A stretch of 64,000 nucleotides of DNA from a virus. Positions 42,996 through 49,627 of the stretch are shown piece after piece. The DNA is taken from UHGV virus genome UHGV-1378817; one strand, 5' to 3'. Position 1 is the stretch's first letter. Each line of letters starts with the position of its first letter. The position numbers and the translations under genes are program-made. The notes beneath the pieces are model-generated. The model saw only the letters and a program-made list of their open reading frames with translations. It was not told where the DNA came from and did no database searches.

Positions 42996-43094
42996 GGTGC
43001 TAGGTGATGGAATCGAACCACCTATGTATTCAACGACTACCTCGTCTATTTTCAGGATTAAAAATCCTCGCCCTTGCCAAAGGGCTTACCTAGC
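42996..43094 (-). ncRNA. atypical tRNA-like gene (98 nt), possible pseudo/variant tRNA with UUU anticodon-like loop
   Basis: Perfect 7-bp acceptor GCUAGGU/ACCUAGC, D-arm GCCC-UUUGGCAA-GGGC, T-arm GGUGG-UUCGAUU-CCAUC, but 3' end is CC not CCA and there is a 30-nt extra region between anticodon and T arms. Confidence 0.35.
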
Positions 43095-43998: not shown

Positions 43999-44039
43999 GT
44001 TTCCTCCATTATCACGTGATAGGTGGATTTTATCATAGC

Positions 44040-44300
44040 AAATACTGATTGTCAAGTTCGCCGCAGGGTGGTATTCCCTGCGACTTGCCCAGCGTCCTGG
44101 ACCAGCAAGACCCAACAAGTGGGTTTTCCAGCTATACCCATTACCGCACACAGGCTCGACCTTATTACAGGTTGGCTGGGGTCACATCGTCATGTGCTGG
44201 CTGCCCCTACCATTTTAAGTGTGGTGCACTATCAAGCCCTCTAAGGGGAACTCAGCCTTCTCCGAACCCTGTTTCAAAGCATCCGGAGATAAAGCCATCA
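44040..44300. other. GC-rich non-coding island (candidate structured RNA or acquired fragment)
   Basis: Visibly GC-richer than flanking AT-rich phage DNA; local hairpin GCAGGG-UGGUAUU-CCCUGC; overlapping plus-strand ORFs lack SD/start context. Confidence 0.2.
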
Positions 44301-44346
44301 AATTCATCTTTAAATTGGATATTCATCATAATACACGAAAACAACC

Positions 44347-44589
44347 TCATTGTAAAGCACAAATAAATAAAACATACTTAATTTGTTTGTTATCAGGCTC
44401 AGGGTAGAAGTAGAAGATCTTGCTATCACCGATCTGAACACCACCATCCCAACAGCATAGCCCATAACCCGTATTCATACAAGCTAAGTCGTTGGCAAAA
44501 TCTATTGCATCATCCAGTGCACGAAATTCACCTTCATCTTCTAAATAATCCTCATTCATGGAACGAAAAACGAGCTTAACCTTAAACAT
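44347..44589 (-). CDS. hypothetical protein (80 aa)
   Basis: ORF from track; acidic, Cys-containing; no motif recognised. Confidence 0.35.
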   Translation of the reverse strand: MFKVKLVFRSMNEDYLEDEGEFRALDDAIDFANDLACMNTGYGLCCWDGGVQIGDSKIFYFYPEPDNKQIKYVLFICALQ

Positions 44590-44665
44590 AGCATTACCTG
44601 TAGACCTCGTAAGTTAAAATTGTATCACATCATATTGCAGATCTTATCAGGTAACATTATTTTTG

Positions 44666-44875
44666 TCAACAGATTCCGGCCTTATCTCGCCTGTCTGCGT
44701 ATTCTTTAATCGCAACCTCCTCGGCATGGGTGACTAAATCTTCAAAGTAACTCTCAAGCTCCTCGTCAATGTCAGGAAACCAACTCTTTTTCCTGTCAGT
44801 GTGAATCGCAGACTTGTTGAATTTATTACAGTTCTTTGCTACCGGATTGTTCATTAATCGCCCCTCAGCGTTCAT
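44666..44875 (-). CDS. hypothetical protein (69 aa)
   Basis: ORF from track, overlaps upstream gene end by 11 nt. Confidence 0.3.
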   Translation of the reverse strand: MNAEGRLMNNPVAKNCNKFNKSAIHTDRKKSWFPDIDEELESYFEDLVTHAEEVAIKEYADRRDKAGIC

Positions 44876-45443
44876 AGTAAATCTTATTTAACATTACCTC
44901 ATCCTTTGCAGAGAGAATACCGAGATATGCATCACCGAACCTACCTGCAACAACCTCTACATGATACATAACTTCGTTAATATCGTCAAGAGTGATAACT
45001 GGATGACCGTATCTCTCTGAGTATTGTCTCAGAGTGCGATGTAGGGAATCATCATCGTAGGCAGACTTTTTAATATCACAAACACGACGAATAGCCTTGA
45101 TGTCGAAAAACCCTGTGCGATACCAACCAAGAAAAAGGTTTCGTACAGTGTCAACACCTACATCAACACCGTCAAGAACCTTATCTACAAGATAGCTGTC
45201 ATCCTTTGGACCTGCTTCCTTAGTTCGAATGTAGTTGCCATCTTTTCCAGGTGACAGCTCCTTCTCATCACCAACCTGAATGCCATCATTTGGCGGTGTT
45301 AACCACTTATCCGGATGCTTACGATCACGAGCGTTAGAATGATTACGCTGGAAACCTGGCTTCCACTTGAAAGTTTTCTCCATCTGTTCTTCATTCTGAT
45401 AACGTTTTGCAATCTTTTCACGGTCATCTTTGCGTGGACTCAT
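44865..45443 (-). CDS. hypothetical protein (192 aa)
   Basis: ATG with GAGGAGG SD; basic N-terminus; first gene downstream of the long non-coding region. Confidence 0.45.
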   Translation of the reverse strand: MSPRKDDREKIAKRYQNEEQMEKTFKWKPGFQRNHSNARDRKHPDKWLTPPNDGIQVGDEKELSPGKDGNYIRTKEAGPKDDSYLVDKVLDGVDVGVDTVRNLFLGWYRTGFFDIKAIRRVCDIKKSAYDDDSLHRTLRQYSERYGHPVITLDDINEVMYHVEVVAGRFGDAYLGILSAKDEVMLNKIYYER

Positions 45444-45539
45444 AACTACCTCCTCTTCAAGTTATAGAAAAACTCACTGTATCGCTTTGTAACGAGCTTT
45501 TCTATCAAACTGGTGCGATTGCCTTACCTGGTATAGTTT

Positions 45540-45820
45540 ATATAGCTGTGGAGCGATTTAGGTGCCTTCTTGTCCGTTTCCACACATAAACTTCATCCAA
45601 GCTCGCGCGGGAGACTCTCAACCGACTCCTTACGGCGCTGGCAAGCTTTCGTCGGTGGTCCACATCAGTGCTCGGCCTTTGGCCTGCGCTATCGCTTCGC
45701 TCCCACACATGTTAACAGACCTGCATGTATGCACTTCTGTTATTGTGTGCACCAGGGAGGCCCGGCATCTCGCCCCTCGTAGGCGAGTGCCAATGAAGGG
45801 CCGACACTACCCATAGTAAG
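45540..45820. other. GC-rich non-coding island (candidate structured RNA)
   Basis: GC-rich block within an AT-rich intergenic region; plus-strand ORFs 45562..45816 and 45570..45782 lack SD and look like composition artefacts. Confidence 0.25.
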
Positions 45821-45846
45821 TAATAAATTTAAAACATGGTACTTAG

Positions 45847-45904
45847 GATCTAGTATATTCTACATAAGTTAAGTATATGTACTTAGTACCATAAGTACTA
45901 GATC
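45847..45904. repeat. 9-bp inverted repeat (GATCTAGTA ... TACTAGATC) spanning an AT-rich tract
   Basis: Arms at 45847-45855 and 45896-45904 separated by 40 nt of AT-rich sequence containing repeated GTACTTAG. Confidence 0.4.
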
Positions 45905-45946
45905 TTTTATTTTTTATTATTTAGTTATTTTAGTTATATTCTTTAT

Positions 45947-46029
45947 GTGTCCGTATCACGGACAGTTAGTGTCCGTATTACGGGCAGATGTGTCCGCGTG
46001 ACGGACAGTAGTGTCCGTATCACGGACAG
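45947..46029. repeat. four phased dyad-symmetric iterons (candidate operator array or origin iterons)
   Basis: GTGTCCGTATCACGGACAG at 45947, variants at 45969 and 45990, exact repeat at 46011; each has arms TGTCCGT/ACGGACA; spacing 22, 21, 21 bp. Confidence 0.6.
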
Positions 46030-46103
46030 TTACTAACCTCTGTTCCATAGCGAACATAAAACATACGAATCCTTATAGTACAGATATTTAAGTTTTTACT
46101 GGT

Positions 46104-46454
46104 CTAACCAGTTGTTGACATTCGAATAACCTCTTCTGGTGGCAAAACTTTGGAAAATGTGCATCTTTTACCTCTCCCTTGTGTGGATATTTCAACCACT
46201 CCTGCACATTCTAAAGTTTTAACGCACGCTGCTGCTTTTGTTTTCTTTATCCCAACATCTGCTGCAATTTTCCTTGTGCTGGGTGTGAAGCGTGAACTTC
46301 CTCCAAGCTTATACCAGTTGTGCAGGTAGCAGTATACGATCTTGTCATACAAGTCAAGAACAACAACCTCCCCAGTTGTGTCATTCAAAACTTTTGACAT
46401 AGACAGTATTTCAAGGGGGACTTTAAGATATAGCAGCTTATCCCCATCTTTCAT
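46104..46454 (-). CDS. putative helix-turn-helix DNA-binding protein (116 aa)
   Basis: Segment SSRFTPSTRKIAADVGIKKTKAAACVKTLECAGVVEI resembles an HTH/winged-helix recognition unit; iteron array lies 75 nt downstream of its stop. Confidence 0.45.
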   Translation of the reverse strand: MKDGDKLLYLKVPLEILSMSKVLNDTTGEVVVLDLYDKIVYCYLHNWYKLGGSSRFTPSTRKIAADVGIKKTKAAACVKTLECAGVVEISTQGRGKRCTFSKVLPPEEVIRMSTTG

Positions 46455-46501
46455 ATCTCCTGATTCTCCTTGTGTGGCAATTTTCTTTAAAATAGCAGGG
46501 A

Positions 46502-47056
46502 TTACTCCCCGCTGTCAATAGCAAGACTCATTGCAATACTGTATGCCTCTTCTAATGGTAAGAGTCTACCCCACACATCCCAACCGACATCAAACTGCCT
46601 GCCAAACAACTGTTGTGTGGTTCCGTGAGCATGACCGAACAGTTGTACTGATCCGTGAGGCTTTCTGTTCCACTTTGCAAACTGGTAATGGCTCATACAG
46701 ATCAAATTCTTGTTGTGGCGAAGCTCGTAATAATCTACAACCTCATGATAGAACTCTTTCATAATTCTGACAGTCGTCCTTGTGTCATGGTTGCCACGAA
46801 CAAGAATAATATGTCCGTTCAACATATTTAGAATATCTGGAAGTAAGTTGTTGATATTTTTATCAGTAGTGCACGCAATATCTCCCAAGTGGAACACAGT
46901 GTCTGCAGGTGACACAACAGAGTTCCACTCGGCGATGATTCCCGCATTCATACTGTCAAGATTGTGATCATACTGAGATCTGTGTTTTTGACATGAATCA
47001 AACTCCATGACCCGCTGGTGGAGAAAGTGTGTGTCGCTTGTTACAAAGTATTTCAT
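46502..47056 (-). CDS. calcineurin-like metallophosphoesterase (candidate RNA-repair phosphatase), start revised
   Basis: Motifs SDTHF, HLGDIA, VRGNHD, FGHAHG; ATG at 47056 (MKYFVTSDTHF) lies just past the stop of the kinase gene; track ORF extends to 47161. Confidence 0.65.
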   Translation of the reverse strand: MKYFVTSDTHFLHQRVMEFDSCQKHRSQYDHNLDSMNAGIIAEWNSVVSPADTVFHLGDIACTTDKNINNLLPDILNMLNGHIILVRGNHDTRTTVRIMKEFYHEVVDYYELRHNKNLICMSHYQFAKWNRKPHGSVQLFGHAHGTTQQLFGRQFDVGWDVWGRLLPLEEAYSIAMSLAIDSGE

Positions 47057-47063
47057 ACATTCC

Positions 47064-47474
47064 TCATTTAAGTTTAATGCAGTTTTTAAGCTGGCGTTCC
47101 ATACGATCCACAACCCTGTCTGGAACATCATGAATGCTTTTATTACCGTGTCGGTTTTCAACCACGATTACGGTATAATTATACCCATGGCTGATTGCCA
47201 TGTCAACATATTCTTGCACATGTTTTTCTTTTGTAAACGTATTACTTACCACGATACGGTCGTATCCCATACGCATCATATCTTCTACGTTATCTTTGCA
47301 CCATTTTGCTGCAAGTGTTACTTTACTTGCATCCCAGTTGTAATTGCCGTCATCGTCGTACCAGAACATGTCGTTCTCAAAATGTGGATACAGACCTTCT
47401 AAAGATAGCGCATTTGCCAGTGTTGATTTGCCAGACCCTGGTAGACCACGCACGATATATAGCATTTTAGACAT
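47064..47474 (-). CDS. P-loop kinase, polynucleotide kinase-like, start revised
   Basis: Walker A GLPGSGKST (as in T4 Pnk kinase domain); ATG at 47474 with GGAGG SD; track ORF extends to 47531. Confidence 0.6.
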   Translation of the reverse strand: MSKMLYIVRGLPGSGKSTLANALSLEGLYPHFENDMFWYDDDGNYNWDASKVTLAAKWCKDNVEDMMRMGYDRIVVSNTFTKEKHVQEYVDMAISHGYNYTVIVVENRHGNKSIHDVPDRVVDRMERQLKNCIKLK

Positions 47475-47502
47475 AGTAATCCTCCGTTTTAATTTCAAAG
47501 AT

Positions 47503-47531
47503 AGTATACCTAACTGTTTTGTTAATTTCAA
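47503..47531 (-). promoter_or_regulatory. candidate promoter TTGAAA-17-TATACT for kinase/phosphatase operon
   Basis: Minus strand reads TTGAAA TTAACAAAACAGTTAGG TATACT in the 100-nt divergent intergenic region. Confidence 0.4.
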
Positions 47532-47592
47532 GTGTTGACACTAGGTTATTTGTGTGGCAGGATAGACTGACAAAATGACAAATGAGGAACGT

Positions 47593-48510
47593 ATGATGAA
47601 GTATTTTAATGCAGACGACCTAGTTGACAAAGGTCTTGTAACCAGTAGATATTACCCAGATCTTGGGTTAAAGATCTATAAATACGCCAGAAAAGTATTT
47701 TACAACAATTTATGGCATTTGTCCCCTCGTTTACTGGAGTGCCGAGGCATTGTTGTCGGTAATGAAGGAAATGTTGTGGCATGGCCCTTCACAAAAGTGT
47801 TTAACTTGGGAGAAAACTCCACCAACCTGCCTGACAATAAGCTTGTGACGGCGGTAGAGAAAAAGAACGGATTCCTTGGTGTGGTATCATCTCATAAAGG
47901 TGAACTATTGTTCTCAACAACCGGATCTCTTGATTCTCCATATTGTAACCTTGCAAAGGAAACCATCCAGGAGCAATGCGGTAATTTAGATCTTATCAAG
48001 AAGGTTATGGGCAATGAAAACATGACATTCATGTTTGAAATTTGTCACCCTTCAGATCCGCATATTGTTCAGGAAGATCATGGCGCATATTTGATAGGTT
48101 GCAGGTATAATGATTCTGGAATAATGCTACCAGAGGCAGCTTTAGATGGGATTGCCAAATACCTTGGTGCAAAACGTCCTCACACTGTGCGTGAAATTCC
48201 GTTCAGCTATGCAAAAGAATTGGCTGCAGAAACAAGAGGTGAAGGGTATATGATTCGTAAGCCTTACTATCCTTATGATCTGCAGCTGAAGATCAAGTCT
48301 CCATACTATCTGGCACGGAAGGCCGTAATGAGGGGTAAAGCTTGGAAGATTTGGGATGATGATATCTTTAAACGTGTTGACGAAGAGTTTTACGGCATGG
48401 TAAACTTCATTCGCAACAACTACACAGAGGATGTATGGAACTGCCTCCTGGAGCAGGAACGCCGTGAGATACTTGACTACTATTTCCACAACGAGGACTA
48501 TATGCAATGA
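47593..48510 (+). CDS. nucleotidyltransferase-superfamily ligase, RNA-ligase-like
   Basis: Motif I KKNGF (KxNG), motif IV-like EGYMIRK, motif V-like LKIKSP; start taken at ATG 47593 after GAGGA (track 47575); a TTGACA -35-like hexamer lies upstream at 47535. Confidence 0.5.
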   Translation: MMKYFNADDLVDKGLVTSRYYPDLGLKIYKYARKVFYNNLWHLSPRLLECRGIVVGNEGNVVAWPFTKVFNLGENSTNLPDNKLVTAVEKKNGFLGVVSSHKGELLFSTTGSLDSPYCNLAKETIQEQCGNLDLIKKVMGNENMTFMFEICHPSDPHIVQEDHGAYLIGCRYNDSGIMLPEAALDGIAKYLGAKRPHTVREIPFSYAKELAAETRGEGYMIRKPYYPYDLQLKIKSPYYLARKAVMRGKAWKIWDDDIFKRVDEEFYGMVNFIRNNYTEDVWNCLLEQERREILDYYFHNEDYMQ

Positions 48511-48857
48511 AGAAGTTGATTGTGTGGCTGGATGACTTGAGAGACCCGTCAAATTATGGGCTCCCAGACGCTATTTGGCTAAAGAATTCCTCCGAGTTTA
48601 TGGATTTTATTAACGATAATAGAAAGCTCTACAGACGCGTTTCTGAGTGGCATATGGACAACGACCTTGGAGAGGTATTAGAAGGGTACGATTGTCTATC
48701 TATGTTGGAGGAAAAATTTGTATTTGGTAAGCCTCCTGTAGTTGACAACGTGAAGATTTTCGTGCATACTTCTAACCCATCAGCTGCTCGTAAATTCATG
48801 CTTGCAGCTGACTCGTTTAAAAAGTTTGGAATAGAGATTAAACAAAACATCTACTGA
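48507..48857 (+). CDS. hypothetical protein (116 aa), receiver-like fold suspected
   Basis: ATGA overlap with upstream gene; pattern IVWLDDLRD...WHMDNDLG...VKIFVHTSNP loosely resembles a CheY-like receiver topology (weak). Confidence 0.4.
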   Translation: MKKLIVWLDDLRDPSNYGLPDAIWLKNSSEFMDFINDNRKLYRRVSEWHMDNDLGEVLEGYDCLSMLEEKFVFGKPPVVDNVKIFVHTSNPSAARKFMLAADSFKKFGIEIKQNIY

Positions 48858-48865
48858 GGACACTT

Positions 48866-49627
48866 ATGCGACGACTTATTATTATCTCCGGTGCTGGTTT
48901 GAGCGCTGAATCTGGTATTCCCACTTTCCGATCTGGTAGCACTGCAATGTGGGAGAATTTCAGCATCGATGAGGTGTGCAACATCCACACCTTTGCCAAG
49001 AACTACTATAAGGTGCATGACTTTTACAATGCACGTCGTGTAGCTCTAGGCAGTGTTGAGCCTAACCTTGCACATCTTCGGATCGCTGAGTGGTATTCCC
49101 GCTGGTCTGGTCGTGTGATCAACCTTACCACCAATGTAGATGATTTGCTGGAGCGTGCTGGTGTAAAACATGAAGATATTTTACATGTCCACGGGTATTT
49201 GCCAGAAATAGTCTATGAGGACGATGAAGGAAGTGACGTCATTAAGGACATTGGATACTCTGAGGTAGACGCAGGAAAGTATACCTGGGTTAAGCCTAAT
49301 GTGGTGTTCTTCGGAGAAGTAGCTCCGAAGTATACAGACATGTATGACCTGTTGACTTCTCTTACGAGCAATGATATGGTTATCCTTGTAGGGTGCTCCA
49401 ACACAGTTATCAATTTTAACTGGGAGCTATTCCCTGCCTGCAATAAGGGAACAAAACTGCTGATCGTTAACAAATACGACTCACAGCAGCTAGGGGAGAA
49501 TGGCATTTCACGTAGTGATATTTACCAATATGAGGATCGCGGCATCCCAGTTTGGTTTAACGGGGCGGTTGATGCTTTCTCTGATAAAACATTCATTGAG
49601 ACCGTAGAAAACTTTATGGAACTTTAA
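48866..49627 (+). CDS. Sir2-family NAD-dependent protein (sirtuin-like)
   Basis: GAGLSAESGIPTFR matches the sirtuin GAGIS..SGIP.FR motif; later TTNVDDLLERAG and HG..P blocks; GAGGA SD. Confidence 0.7.
   Translation: MRRLIIISGAGLSAESGIPTFRSGSTAMWENFSIDEVCNIHTFAKNYYKVHDFYNARRVALGSVEPNLAHLRIAEWYSRWSGRVINLTTNVDDLLERAGVKHEDILHVHGYLPEIVYEDDEGSDVIKDIGYSEVDAGKYTWVKPNVVFFGEVAPKYTDMYDLLTSLTSNDMVILVGCSNTVINFNWELFPACNKGTKLLIVNKYDSQQLGENGISRSDIYQYEDRGIPVWFNGAVDAFSDKTFIETVENFMEL

What the first reader, a model, noticed from the sequence alone, without database searches (positions are those of the whole stretch)
45821..46103. AT-rich tract plus four phased palindromic iterons next to an HTH gene: candidate origin or operator hub
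Four copies of a 19-bp site (GTGTCCGTATCACGGACAG; arms TGTCCGT/ACGGACA) recur every 21-22 bp, i.e. on one helical face. Immediately adjacent is a strongly AT-rich stretch with a 9-bp inverted repeat and short direct repeats. The gene just upstream encodes a small HTH-like protein. Dyad-symmetric sites phased by two helical turns next to an AT-rich unwinding-like element is the architecture of iteron-type replication origins or of a multi-site operator.
Basis: seen in the sequence. Interest (0 to 1): 0.7.

Follow-up and report, generated by a model that had tools for sequence, protein, structure and literature searches.

The report
Candidate replication origin of rV5-like phages
A row of four repeated DNA sites next to the most easily melted stretch of this E. 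coli phage genome sits beside a small gene related to the DNA-binding part of a proven replication starter protein, so this is probably where rV5-like phages begin copying their DNA, a site that had not been located before.

Summary
Four about 21-bp palindromic repeats lie at 45947-46032. They occur nowhere else in the 64 kb (4 hits against 0.14 expected). They are better described as eight alternately oriented TGYCCG half-sites, each one helical turn apart.

They abut a 131-bp tract of 20% GC, the least stable duplex in the whole window. The window is a Vequintavirus (rV5-like coliphage).

Across 16 Vequintavirus sequences the half-sites and the AT tract are almost invariant, while the adjoining spacer is hypervariable. 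One phage has exactly three repeats. Distant homologues in three other phage lineages each have their own palindromic repeats beside the gene, at the main strand switch.

Best reading (about 0.55): an iteron-type replication origin with a minimal, DNA-binding-only initiator. A pure operator array (about 0.25) is not excluded.

Side finding: a structured GC-rich element next to the AT tract is shared with 13-kb capsid-encoding circular E. coli elements.

The parts
46104..46454 (-). Gene for a 116-aa winged-helix protein: a stand-alone homologue of the PLE RepA N-terminal iteron-binding domain (Pfam DUF6945 / HTH_36 class). Proposed origin-binding protein.
46489..46518 (-). Sigma-70-like promoter (TTGACA, 18 nt, TATTTT, with TG) just upstream of the gene. 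It contains no copy of the repeat.
   Evidence: Consensus scan, 10 of 12 matches. The 47-bp intergenic stretch 46455-46501 has only 2 variable columns in 16 phages.
46033..46103 (.). Spacer between the stop codon and the array. Its array-proximal part (about 46033-46053) is hypervariable.
   Evidence: Mean pairwise difference 0.146, the highest of all segments compared; 21 of 71 columns vary.
45947..46032 (.). Iteron array. Four 17-bp palindromes lie at 45948-45964, 45970-45986, 45991-46007 and 46012-46028. Equivalently, eight alternately oriented TGYCCG half-sites lie 10-11 bp apart on one face of the helix.
   Evidence: In 16 Vequintavirus sequences every substitution falls in the central or inter-unit bases, or is TGTCCG<->TGCCCG. 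Phage BP9 lacks exactly one 21-bp unit. Uncompensated arm changes argue for a protein site, not a hairpin.
45816..45946 (.). AT-rich tract (20% GC), proposed DNA-unwinding element. It contains GATCTTTTATTTT (45901-45913, +), the dyad GATCTAGTA / TACTAGATC (45847-45855 and 45896-45904), three GTACTTA motifs and two GATC sites.
   Evidence: Least stable duplex in the 64 kb. Only 12 of 132 columns vary in 16 phages. The only exact match in the window to the oriC 13-mer consensus GATCTnTTnTTTT. Motif counts.
45540..45815 (-). Conserved GC-rich non-coding element with a structured core (45594-45710) and a 5' hairpin (about 45756-45808). Its role is unresolved: possibly a priming or loading site of the origin, possibly an unrelated RNA or a packaging signal.
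   Evidence: GC 0.54-0.63. No conserved ORF. No Rfam family. Core shared with small E. coli circular elements. A 6-bp helix has 3 compensatory pairs around an invariant 24-nt loop. CM match 136.7 bits.

Best explanation
This is the vegetative replication origin of rV5-like phages (genus Vequintavirus), built like an iteron origin.

Inferred from homology: the 116-aa winged-helix protein encoded next door is a stand-alone version of the RepA_N-type, PLE-RepA-like DNA-binding domain. It binds as dimers to the lattice of eight TGYCCG half-sites. All half-sites lie on one face of the helix, so four dimers can pack into one cooperative nucleoprotein complex that bends or wraps the DNA.

Inferred: the strain is relieved in the adjacent 131-bp tract, the least stable duplex in the region, which opens. 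The phage's own replisome then enters. That replisome is reported for rV5 and comprises a T7-gp4-like primase-helicase, Pol A and a PIF1/RecD-like SF1B helicase. The protein has no C-terminal recruiting domain, so loading would rely on DNA remodelling or on another factor. The neighbouring structured GC-rich element may serve as the priming or loading site.

Shown here: the repeats, their phasing and uniqueness; the extreme meltability of the tract; the selective constraint on both; the homology of the protein; and the co-occurrence of homologues with their own repeats in other phages.

Not shown: binding, unwinding, or initiation at this place.
For: 1. Repeats are non-random and unique in the window, with eight half-sites at a 10-11 bp period.
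2. The adjacent AT tract is the least stable duplex in 64 kb by a wide margin. It carries the only exact oriC-type 13-mer in the window.
4. In 16 Vequintavirus sequences the half-site positions 1, 2, 4, 5 and 6 never change and the AT tract is nearly invariant. The spacer next to the array is about 50% diverged in the most distant clade. One phage has exactly 3 units.
5. Homologues in phiPMW-like, Henunavirus-like and Aeromonas phages each sit beside their own 2-3 palindromic repeats, about 23 bp apart, at the main strand switch. That switch is where GC skew has its minimum (PMC5587285).
6. Long-form homologues end in D-[DE]-[IVF]-P-F, the C-terminal tip motif of E. coli SSB, which is a replisome-contact signature.
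7. The array lies 1.5 kb from the cumulative GC-skew minimum and strand switch at about 47.5 kb.
8. A 13.7-kb circular E. coli element has the same order: iterons, then AT-rich DNA, then a homologous structured element. Its iterons are different and it has its own related wHTH protein.
9. The rV5 paper searched for the origin by skew and could not define it (PMC3606486).
Against: - There are no experimental data on binding or initiation.
- The protein is only the DNA-binding domain. It lacks the C-terminal domain that RepA_N initiators are thought to use for replisome recruitment.
- Its Pfam DUF6945 score is below the curated cut-off.
- In the Henunavirus-like lineage the two sites sit directly upstream of the gene's ribosome-binding site, at the head of a PRPP-synthetase/NAMPT operon. 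That looks like an autoregulatory operator.
- There is no cluster of DnaA boxes.
- GC skew in this genome follows transcription direction, so its minimum is weak evidence.
- The 13-mer match is a single post-hoc hit.
Confidence: 0.55

Rival explanations
1. A transcriptional operator array only. The wHTH protein would be a repressor or activator. It would coat the eight half-sites and so block read-through from its own gene. Alternatively it would control a promoter in the AT-rich tract that drives the GC-rich element, the downstream early genes and the tRNA cluster. Replication would start elsewhere or by another route, for example recombination-dependent.
For: - The geometry (dyad sites about 21-23 bp apart) is also that of lambda-type operators (established knowledge).
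- In Henunavirus-like phages two sites lie between the AT-rich divergent region and the gene's ribosome-binding site, with weak hits to Pfam wHTH-PRTase_assc.
- The protein has no domain beyond the DNA-binding fold.
- Many fold neighbours are MarR/ArsR-type regulators.
- GenBank submitters call it 'putative transcriptional regulator'.
Against: - In rV5-like phages the array is 3' of the gene. The gene's own promoter region (46455-46518) has no site.
- No sigma-70-like promoter or terminator overlaps the array or the AT tract. None is listed for this interval in the rV5 promoter table.
- The closest characterised relatives of the domain are origin binders, not regulators.
- Four dimer sites plus the most meltable 130 bp of the genome are more than a simple operator needs.
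- The two roles are not exclusive: iteron initiators commonly autoregulate.
Confidence: 0.25
2. The protein does bind the array, but the module serves another DNA transaction. It could act in competition or incompatibility with satellites that use related initiators, working as a decoy or handcuffing site. It could act as a recognition site for packaging. Or it could anchor the genome, without being the start point of replication.
For: - The same DNA-binding domain has been re-used for a non-replicative purpose in ICP1 Odn. P0013 is a GIY-YIG fusion.
- Small capsid-encoding circular elements related to rV5-like phages exist. They share the neighbouring structured element and carry a related wHTH protein with different iterons.
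- Satellites typically share packaging signals with their helpers (established knowledge).
Against: - The array lies in cis next to the gene and next to a DUE-like tract.
- It is conserved in all 119-121 Vequintavirus records found.
- No nuclease or other effector domain is attached.
- The satellite-like elements contain no TGTCCG-type sites that the phage protein could target.
- The gene sits among early nucleotide- and RNA-repair genes, far from the terminase and structural genes.
Confidence: 0.1
3. The palindromes act as RNA or DNA hairpins, for example tandem terminators or processing sites after the HTH gene, rather than as protein-binding sites.
For: Each unit can form a 6-7 bp stem with a 3-5 nt loop. 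The array follows a stop codon.
Against: - No U-tract follows any stem, and the terminator scan found none.
- Arm substitutions are not compensated: TGTCCG to TGCCCG occurs three times independently with the partner unchanged.
- Variation concentrates in the 'loop' and between units, and the 10-11 bp phasing is kept.
- Dyads between units are as good as dyads within units.
Confidence: 0.03

Closest known systems
PLE RepA and the PLE origin (Vibrio cholerae phage satellite; RepA_N-type initiator; PDB 4RO3)
   Different: The rV5 protein stops after the N-terminal domain, whereas PLE RepA has a C-terminal domain thought to recruit the replisome. PLE has three iterons of about 30 bp converging on a poly-A tract. 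Here there are four units of about 21 bp, equal to eight half-sites with a 10-11 bp period and no poly-A centre. The element here is a 137-kb virulent phage, not a satellite. Function here is untested.
Staphylococcal RepA_N plasmid initiators (pSK41, pTZ2162; PDB 4PTA) and DnaD N-terminal domain
   Different: There is no detectable sequence match to Pfam RepA_N. There is no C-terminal domain. DnaD-NTD itself does not bind DNA.
Bacteriophage lambda ori and O protein
   Same: From established knowledge: four about 19-bp iterons, each with internal dyad symmetry, directly followed by an AT-rich unwinding region. They are bound by dimers of a phage-encoded initiator that wraps the DNA (the O-some). 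The anatomy here is the same in number, size and order.
   Different: There is no Pfam Phage_rep_O match. Lambda ori lies inside the O gene, and O has a C-terminal domain that recruits P-DnaB. Here the array is outside the gene and the protein is the binding domain only.
ICP1 Odn (gp88), origin-directed nuclease
   Same: It has the same DUF6945 DNA-binding domain (ICP1 ORF88 4.9e-35; Foldseek hit).
   Different: Odn carries a T5orf172/GIY-YIG nuclease domain and acts in trans on a foreign origin. The rV5 protein has no nuclease domain, and its presumed sites are in cis.
Lambda-type operator arrays (OR/OL)
   Same: From established knowledge: several dyad-symmetric sites about two helical turns apart, bound cooperatively by dimers.
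   Different: Operators overlap promoters. No promoter-like site overlaps this array, and the array adjoins a DUE-like tract.

Membership tests
Iteron-type replication origin | Three or more direct repeats of about 17-22 bp, phased at about two helical turns | tested here: met
   Four units at 22/21/21 bp, unique in the window. Three units in phage BP9.
Iteron-type replication origin | Adjacent AT-rich DNA-unwinding element | tested here: met
   45816-45946 is 20% GC and the least stable duplex of the 64 kb at three window sizes. It holds an exact oriC-type 13-mer.
Iteron-type replication origin | Cognate initiator encoded in cis and related to a proven initiator | tested here: met
   The gene lies 70 bp away. 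It is homologous to the DNA-binding domain of PLE RepA (PMC7145576).
Iteron-type replication origin | The initiator binds the iterons | not testable with these tools
   Only indirect evidence is available: half-site conservation, and homologues in other phages that have different repeats beside the gene.
Iteron-type replication origin | Replication initiates at this site | not testable with these tools
   This needs marker-frequency sequencing, 2D gels or a plasmid replication assay. GC skew is confounded by transcription.
Iteron-type replication origin | DnaA boxes (present in many, not all, iteron origins) | tested here: not met
   No TTATCCACA-like site (up to 1 mismatch) lies within 45444-46103. 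Such 9-mers are scattered over the whole window.
RepA_N / PLE-RepA-like initiators (Pfam DUF6945 N-terminal domain) | Extended winged-helix N-terminal DNA-binding domain | tested here: met
RepA_N / PLE-RepA-like initiators (Pfam DUF6945 N-terminal domain) | C-terminal domain for host- or helper-specific replisome recruitment | tested here: not met
   The protein ends 12 residues after the wing and last helix. It is therefore filed as an NTD-only relative, not as a full RepA_N initiator.
RepA_N / PLE-RepA-like initiators (Pfam DUF6945 N-terminal domain) | Semi-palindromic iterons whose inverted sub-repeats converge on a poly-A tract | tested here: inconclusive
   The repeats are semi-palindromic. 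The centres are ATC/ATT/GTG, not poly-A. The phiPMW-like (GGACAAAATGTCC) and Henunavirus-like (GCTCAATTTGAGC) relatives do fit.
Transcriptional operator array | Sites overlap or flank a promoter that they control | tested here: inconclusive
   No sigma-70-like promoter lies in or next to the array. Phage-specific promoter types are not covered by the scan. In Henunavirus-like phages the sites lie just upstream of the gene.

The most novel reading that the evidence does not exclude
The wHTH gene, iteron array, AT tract and structured GC-rich element together form one origin module. In it, a DNA-binding-only 'minimal initiator' opens the DNA, and the structured about 115-nt core is the entry or priming site for the phage replisome. 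The core has an invariant 24-nt loop closed by a covarying helix. The 13-kb capsid-encoding circular E. coli elements would be previously unrecognised satellites of rV5-like phages. They keep their own initiator and iterons but copy this core to hijack the helper's replication or packaging machinery. That would be an E. coli counterpart of the PLE-ICP1 system.
Probability: 0.2. Interest if true: 0.8.

Novelty: new member of a known kind. Interest (0 to 1): 0.55.

Why it matters
rV5-like phages (Vequintavirus) are among the most frequently isolated E. coli phages and are used in typing and therapy cocktails. Their origin of replication has never been located: the genome paper tried and failed.

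This locus gives a precise, cheaply testable candidate of 86 bp of sites plus 131 bp of AT-rich DNA, together with a named binding protein. It extends the PLE-RepA/Odn DNA-binding domain family (Pfam DUF6945, a 'domain of unknown function') to large virulent phages of Escherichia, Erwinia, Pseudomonas and Aeromonas. It also suggests that this domain can work without a recruiting domain.

A defined origin would help in engineering these phages, in building phage-dependent replicons, and in interpreting coverage profiles. The shared structured element and the small capsid-encoding circular elements point to a possible helper-satellite pair in E. coli that could be studied with standard tools.

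Tried and rejected
- Chance or low-complexity repeat: rejected.
- Rfam families over the whole window, and permissively over 45400-46150: only tRNAs and chance-level hits.
- Intrinsic terminators or sigma-70 promoters in the region: none except the promoter upstream of the HTH gene. The rV5 promoter/terminator table has nothing in this interval.
- DnaA-box cluster: none.
- Protein-coding potential of the GC-rich element: no ORF is kept across 16 phages.
- RNAalifold on Vequintavirus sequences alone gave no convincing covariation. Covariation appeared only after the plasmid copies were added.
- Word-indexed protein search with the rV5 protein found only close relatives. The exhaustive HMM search found 14 proteins, mostly weak.
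- The first structure prediction, with 5 near-identical sequences, was unusable (pLDDT 44.9).
- The search for related loci in viral contigs: failed with the family alignment and found nothing with P0017, P0018 or the rV5 protein.
- Search of the big protein database with the 4RO3 fragment: nothing found.
- tblastn of the 4RO3 fragment against plasmids: no match.
- The covariance model of the structured core found no copy in the Erwinia, Pseudomonas, Aeromonas or ICP1 loci, and no second copy in the window.
- Literature searches for Vequintavirus iterons, DUF6945 and Vequintavirus satellites found nothing relevant.
- The rV5 late-promoter motif TGGTAAAATA is not present in the AT tract.

Full report
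**What the window is.** The 4 kb around the finding is 95-99% identical to 116 phage records of the genus Vequintavirus (rV5-like coliphages, about 137 kb).

Genes from the left of the window up to about 47.53 kb run on the minus strand. Genes from 47.575 kb onwards run on the plus strand. The cumulative GC-skew minimum lies at this strand switch.

Read along the minus strand, the local order is:
- PNK-like kinase, then a metallophosphoesterase;
- a 116-aa HTH gene (46454 to 46104);
- a 660-bp non-coding stretch;
- a 192-aa ORF (45443 to 44865), small ORFs and a cluster of seven tRNA genes.

**Check of the observation.** The four repeats are real. They lie at 45947-46032 with spacing 22/21/21, and they are not chance. 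The pattern TGTCCGTNNNACGGACA, with up to two mismatches, occurs four times in 64 kb, all here. The expectation is 0.14, and 0 of 100 shuffles reach four.

A closer look changes the description. The conserved unit is a hexamer half-site, TGTCCG or its complement CGGACA. There are eight of them, in alternating orientation, at 45948, 45959, 45970, 45981, 45991, 46002, 46012 and 46023. That is every 10-11 bp. The dyad between two 'iterons' (CGGACA-N5-TGTCCG) is therefore as good as the dyad within one, and all half-sites face one side of the helix.

The adjacent tract 45816-45946 has 20% GC. It is the least stable duplex of the whole window at 60, 100 and 130 bp. At 130 bp it scores -134.5 kcal/mol against a mean of -174.0 (sd 6.6), and the runner-up scores -148.4. 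The tract contains:
- the only exact match in the window to the E. coli oriC 13-mer consensus GATCTnTTnTTTT (45901-45913). This is a single, post-hoc hit;
- a 9-bp inverted repeat, GATCTAGTA/TACTAGATC, whose arms are the only two copies in the window;
- three of the window's five GTACTTA motifs.

One correction: the HTH gene is on the minus strand, so the array lies 70 bp beyond its stop codon, not in its promoter.

**Selective constraint.** I aligned the region from 16 Vequintavirus genomes and metagenomic contigs whose HTH proteins are 85-100% identical.
- The 71-bp spacer between stop codon and array is the most variable segment (mean pairwise difference 0.146). A patch next to the array is about half substituted in the most distant clade.
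- The AT tract is among the least variable segments (0.034; 12 of 132 columns vary). Only the 47-bp stretch upstream of the HTH gene is lower (0.020).
- Inside the array, every substitution falls in the central or inter-unit bases, or is the transition TGTCCG<->TGCCCG. That transition occurs at three independent half-sites without a compensating change in the partner arm.
- Positions 1, 2, 4, 5 and 6 of the half-site never change.
- Phage BP9 lacks exactly one 21-bp unit, and its remaining three units all have consensus half-sites.

This is the pattern of a protein-binding lattice whose copy number changes by unit. It is not the pattern of RNA hairpins. The scan found no terminator-like site either.

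**The protein.** Pfam gives only sub-threshold matches: DUF6945 at 24.9 bits against a cut-off of 28, and HTH_36. PHROGs places it in a family labelled 'replication initiation protein', and RefSeq uses that name.

The family is narrow. An exhaustive HMM search of 1.8 billion representatives gave 14 hits, mostly weak. An alignment of 22 relatives gave a usable AlphaFold model (pLDDT 79.5). It shows a beta-hairpin, a three-helix winged-helix core, a wing and a C-terminal helix.

According to PMC7145576, 4RO3 is the N-terminal domain of RepA of the Vibrio cholerae satellite PLE. [quoted passage not shown] According to PMC8263062, the same domain in ICP1 gp88 (Odn) directs a nuclease to those iterons, and in PLEs the domain co-varies with the origin. 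Pfam DUF6945 is this domain: ICP1 gp88 scores 4.9e-35 and 4RO3 scores 5.7e-23.

The rV5 protein is the domain alone. It ends 12 residues after the last helix, whereas PLE RepA and the staphylococcal proteins have a C-terminal domain.

**Relatives in other phages.** Distant homologues occur in three further lineages:
- Pseudomonas phage phiPMW (Plaisancevirus);
- Erwinia phage pEp_SNUABM_01 (Henunavirus, Vequintavirinae), with metagenomic relatives;
- Aeromonas phage 4L372XY (Plateaulakevirus).

Each has its own palindromic repeats beside the gene:
- three GGACAAAATGTCC sites 33 and 23 bp apart in the phiPMW group;
- two GCTCAATTTGAGC-type sites 23 bp apart in the Henunavirus group. These vary with the protein and adjoin an AT-rich stretch that begins AGATCTTTTTTG;
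- GACAATTTGTC-type palindromes in an AT-rich gap in the Aeromonas group.

In phiPMW and the Henunavirus group the module sits exactly at the main strand switch, next to RNA-ligase, PNK or phosphoesterase genes, as in rV5. For phiPMW the published GC-skew minimum (about 40 kb) is nearby.

The Aeromonas-group proteins all end in D-[DE]-[IVF]-P-F. Several metagenomic long forms end in acidic ...PF. This is the motif of the C-terminal tip of E. coli SSB (established knowledge), through which SSB contacts replication and repair proteins. That fits a replication role for the long forms.

The operator reading also draws on these relatives. In the Henunavirus group the two sites lie immediately upstream of the gene's ribosome-binding site, and the gene heads a PRPP-synthetase/NAMPT operon. 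There are weak hits to Pfam 'wHTH-PRTase associated'.

**Most likely mechanism.** I consider it most likely (about 0.55) that this is the phage's origin of replication.

The proposed sequence of events is inferred. Dimers of the 116-aa protein would fill the eight-half-site lattice on one face of the DNA. The resulting complex would bend or wrap the DNA and transfer stress to the adjoining tract, the easiest place in the region to melt. The phage's own replisome would then load on the opened strands. rV5 is reported to encode a gp4-like primase-helicase, a Pol A and a PIF1/RecD-like helicase. PLE replication likewise needs the helper's SF1B helicase.

What is shown is the anatomy, its uniqueness, its constraint and the homology. 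What is inferred is binding, opening and initiation.

The anatomy also matches lambda ori from established knowledge: four about 19-bp dyad iterons followed by an AT-rich region. No similarity to the O protein was detected.

**Rivals.**
- A pure operator array (about 0.25). It fits the geometry, the tiny protein and the Henunavirus arrangement. In rV5, however, the array is 3' of the gene, no promoter-like site overlaps it, and the domain's characterised relatives bind origins. The two roles can coexist.
- A different DNA transaction, such as satellite competition or packaging (about 0.1). The Odn precedent and the satellite-like elements described below suggest it. No effector domain is present, though, and those elements carry no TGTCCG sites.
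- Hairpins or terminators (about 0.03). The substitution pattern contradicts this.
- Chance is excluded.

**Novelty.** Some GenBank records mark the array as a bare 'repeat_region', and RefSeq names the gene 'replication initiation protein'. The rV5 genome paper tried to find the origin by skew and found only strand switches. I found no paper on Vequintavirus iterons, on DUF6945, or linking these phages to PLE RepA.

I rate it a new member of a known kind: an iteron origin with a RepA_N-like binding domain. It has two variant features, an initiator reduced to its DNA-binding domain and a continuous half-site lattice.

**Side finding 1: the GC-rich element.** The non-coding element 45540-45815 is conserved in all Vequintavirus records. 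It has no conserved ORF and no Rfam match.

Parts of it are about 85% identical to non-coding DNA of five circular E. coli elements, four of 13.2-13.7 kb and one of 39.6 kb. In a 117-nt core (45594-45710, minus strand), a 6-bp helix has three pairs changed on both sides between the phage and plasmid copies, with every pair kept. The helix closes a 24-nt loop that is invariant apart from one G/T position. G-U pairs make sense only on the minus strand. A second hairpin, shared with one plasmid, shows two more compensatory pairs by eye.

The element is therefore a structured RNA or single-stranded DNA element. Effectively only two lineages are compared, so the covariation evidence is modest.

**Side finding 2: the circular elements.** One of these elements, NZ_CP020521.1, is annotated with a major capsid protein, a baseplate protein and a tape measure protein. 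Three of its proteins are 50%, 43% and 25% identical to products of this window.

It has seven 19-bp semi-palindromic iterons of its own (CGGTAAATATTTCCG, mostly 23 bp apart). In the 39.6-kb relative NZ_CP043822.1, the corresponding 288-aa wHTH protein matches the rV5-protein family (hhalign probability 88.9%). The order of iterons, AT-rich DNA and structured element is the same as in the phage.

These look like satellites or miniature relatives of rV5-like phages. I found no literature on them.

Whether the shared element belongs to the origin as a priming or loading site, or is a packaging signal or an RNA with another role, is open. A covariance model found it in no other lineage's locus.

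**Limits.** No read-depth or transcript data were available, so binding and initiation remain untested.

Noticed in passing
window 45540-45815 (core 45594-45710, minus strand): Conserved GC-rich non-coding element with a covarying 6-bp helix around an invariant 24-nt loop. It has no Rfam family and no conserved ORF. It is shared with small circular E. coli elements. It could be a structured RNA or a single-stranded DNA signal.
   Followed up: partly
L030 (NZ_CP020521.1, 13,689 bp, whole record); also L029, L031, L032, L033: Circular E. coli 'plasmids' of 13.2-13.7 kb, plus one of 39.6 kb. They encode a major capsid protein, a baseplate protein and a tape measure protein. Three products of NZ_CP020521.1 are 25-50% identical to proteins of this window. 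NZ_CP020521.1 has its own seven 19-bp iterons, and the elements carry a related wHTH protein. They look like undescribed satellites or mini-relatives of rV5-like phages.
   Followed up: partly
alignment A4; proteins P0020, P0021, P0026, P0032-P0035 and L013:2977-3468: Aeromonas-phage homologues of the wHTH protein all end in D-[DE]-[IVF]-P-F, the C-terminal tip motif of E. coli SSB. Metagenomic long forms (P0010, P0016, P0017) end in acidic ...PF. This suggests they recruit SSB-binding replisome proteins.
   Followed up: no
L026 (Escherichia phage BP9) 749-1387, versus window 45947-46032: A natural variant with exactly three repeat units instead of four (21-bp deletion). All three units have consensus half-sites.
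   Followed up: yes
window 42996-43094 (minus strand): A 99-nt tRNA-like gene that ARAGORN reads with a four-base anticodon (atcc). Rfam scores it 35.5 bits. GenBank records call it tRNA-OTHER or tRNA-Lys. It may contain an intron or be a frameshift-type tRNA.
   Followed up: no
window 44056-44212: A second GC-rich (0.51-0.57) island in a gap between small ORFs, 1.4 kb from the first. It shows no detectable similarity to the first.
   Followed up: partly
whole window: DnaA-box-like 9-mers (TTATCCACA, up to 1 mismatch) are twice as frequent as in shuffles (42 against 20.0, sd 4.3). They are spread over the genome rather than clustered, so this is probably a k-mer or codon bias.
   Followed up: no
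window 47575-49627 (plus strand): Directly across the strand switch lie an RNA ligase (RNA_lig_T4_1), a cREC_REC-domain protein and a SIR2-family protein. On the minus-strand side lie a PNK-like kinase and a phosphoesterase. Together they look like an RNA-repair and NAD-related cluster, possibly counter-defence genes.
   Followed up: no
phage collection hits to window 44000-48000: Eighteen records named 'Campylobacter phage' (host C. jejuni) are about 97% identical to these coliphage genomes. The host assignment or the purity of those isolates looks doubtful.
   Followed up: no
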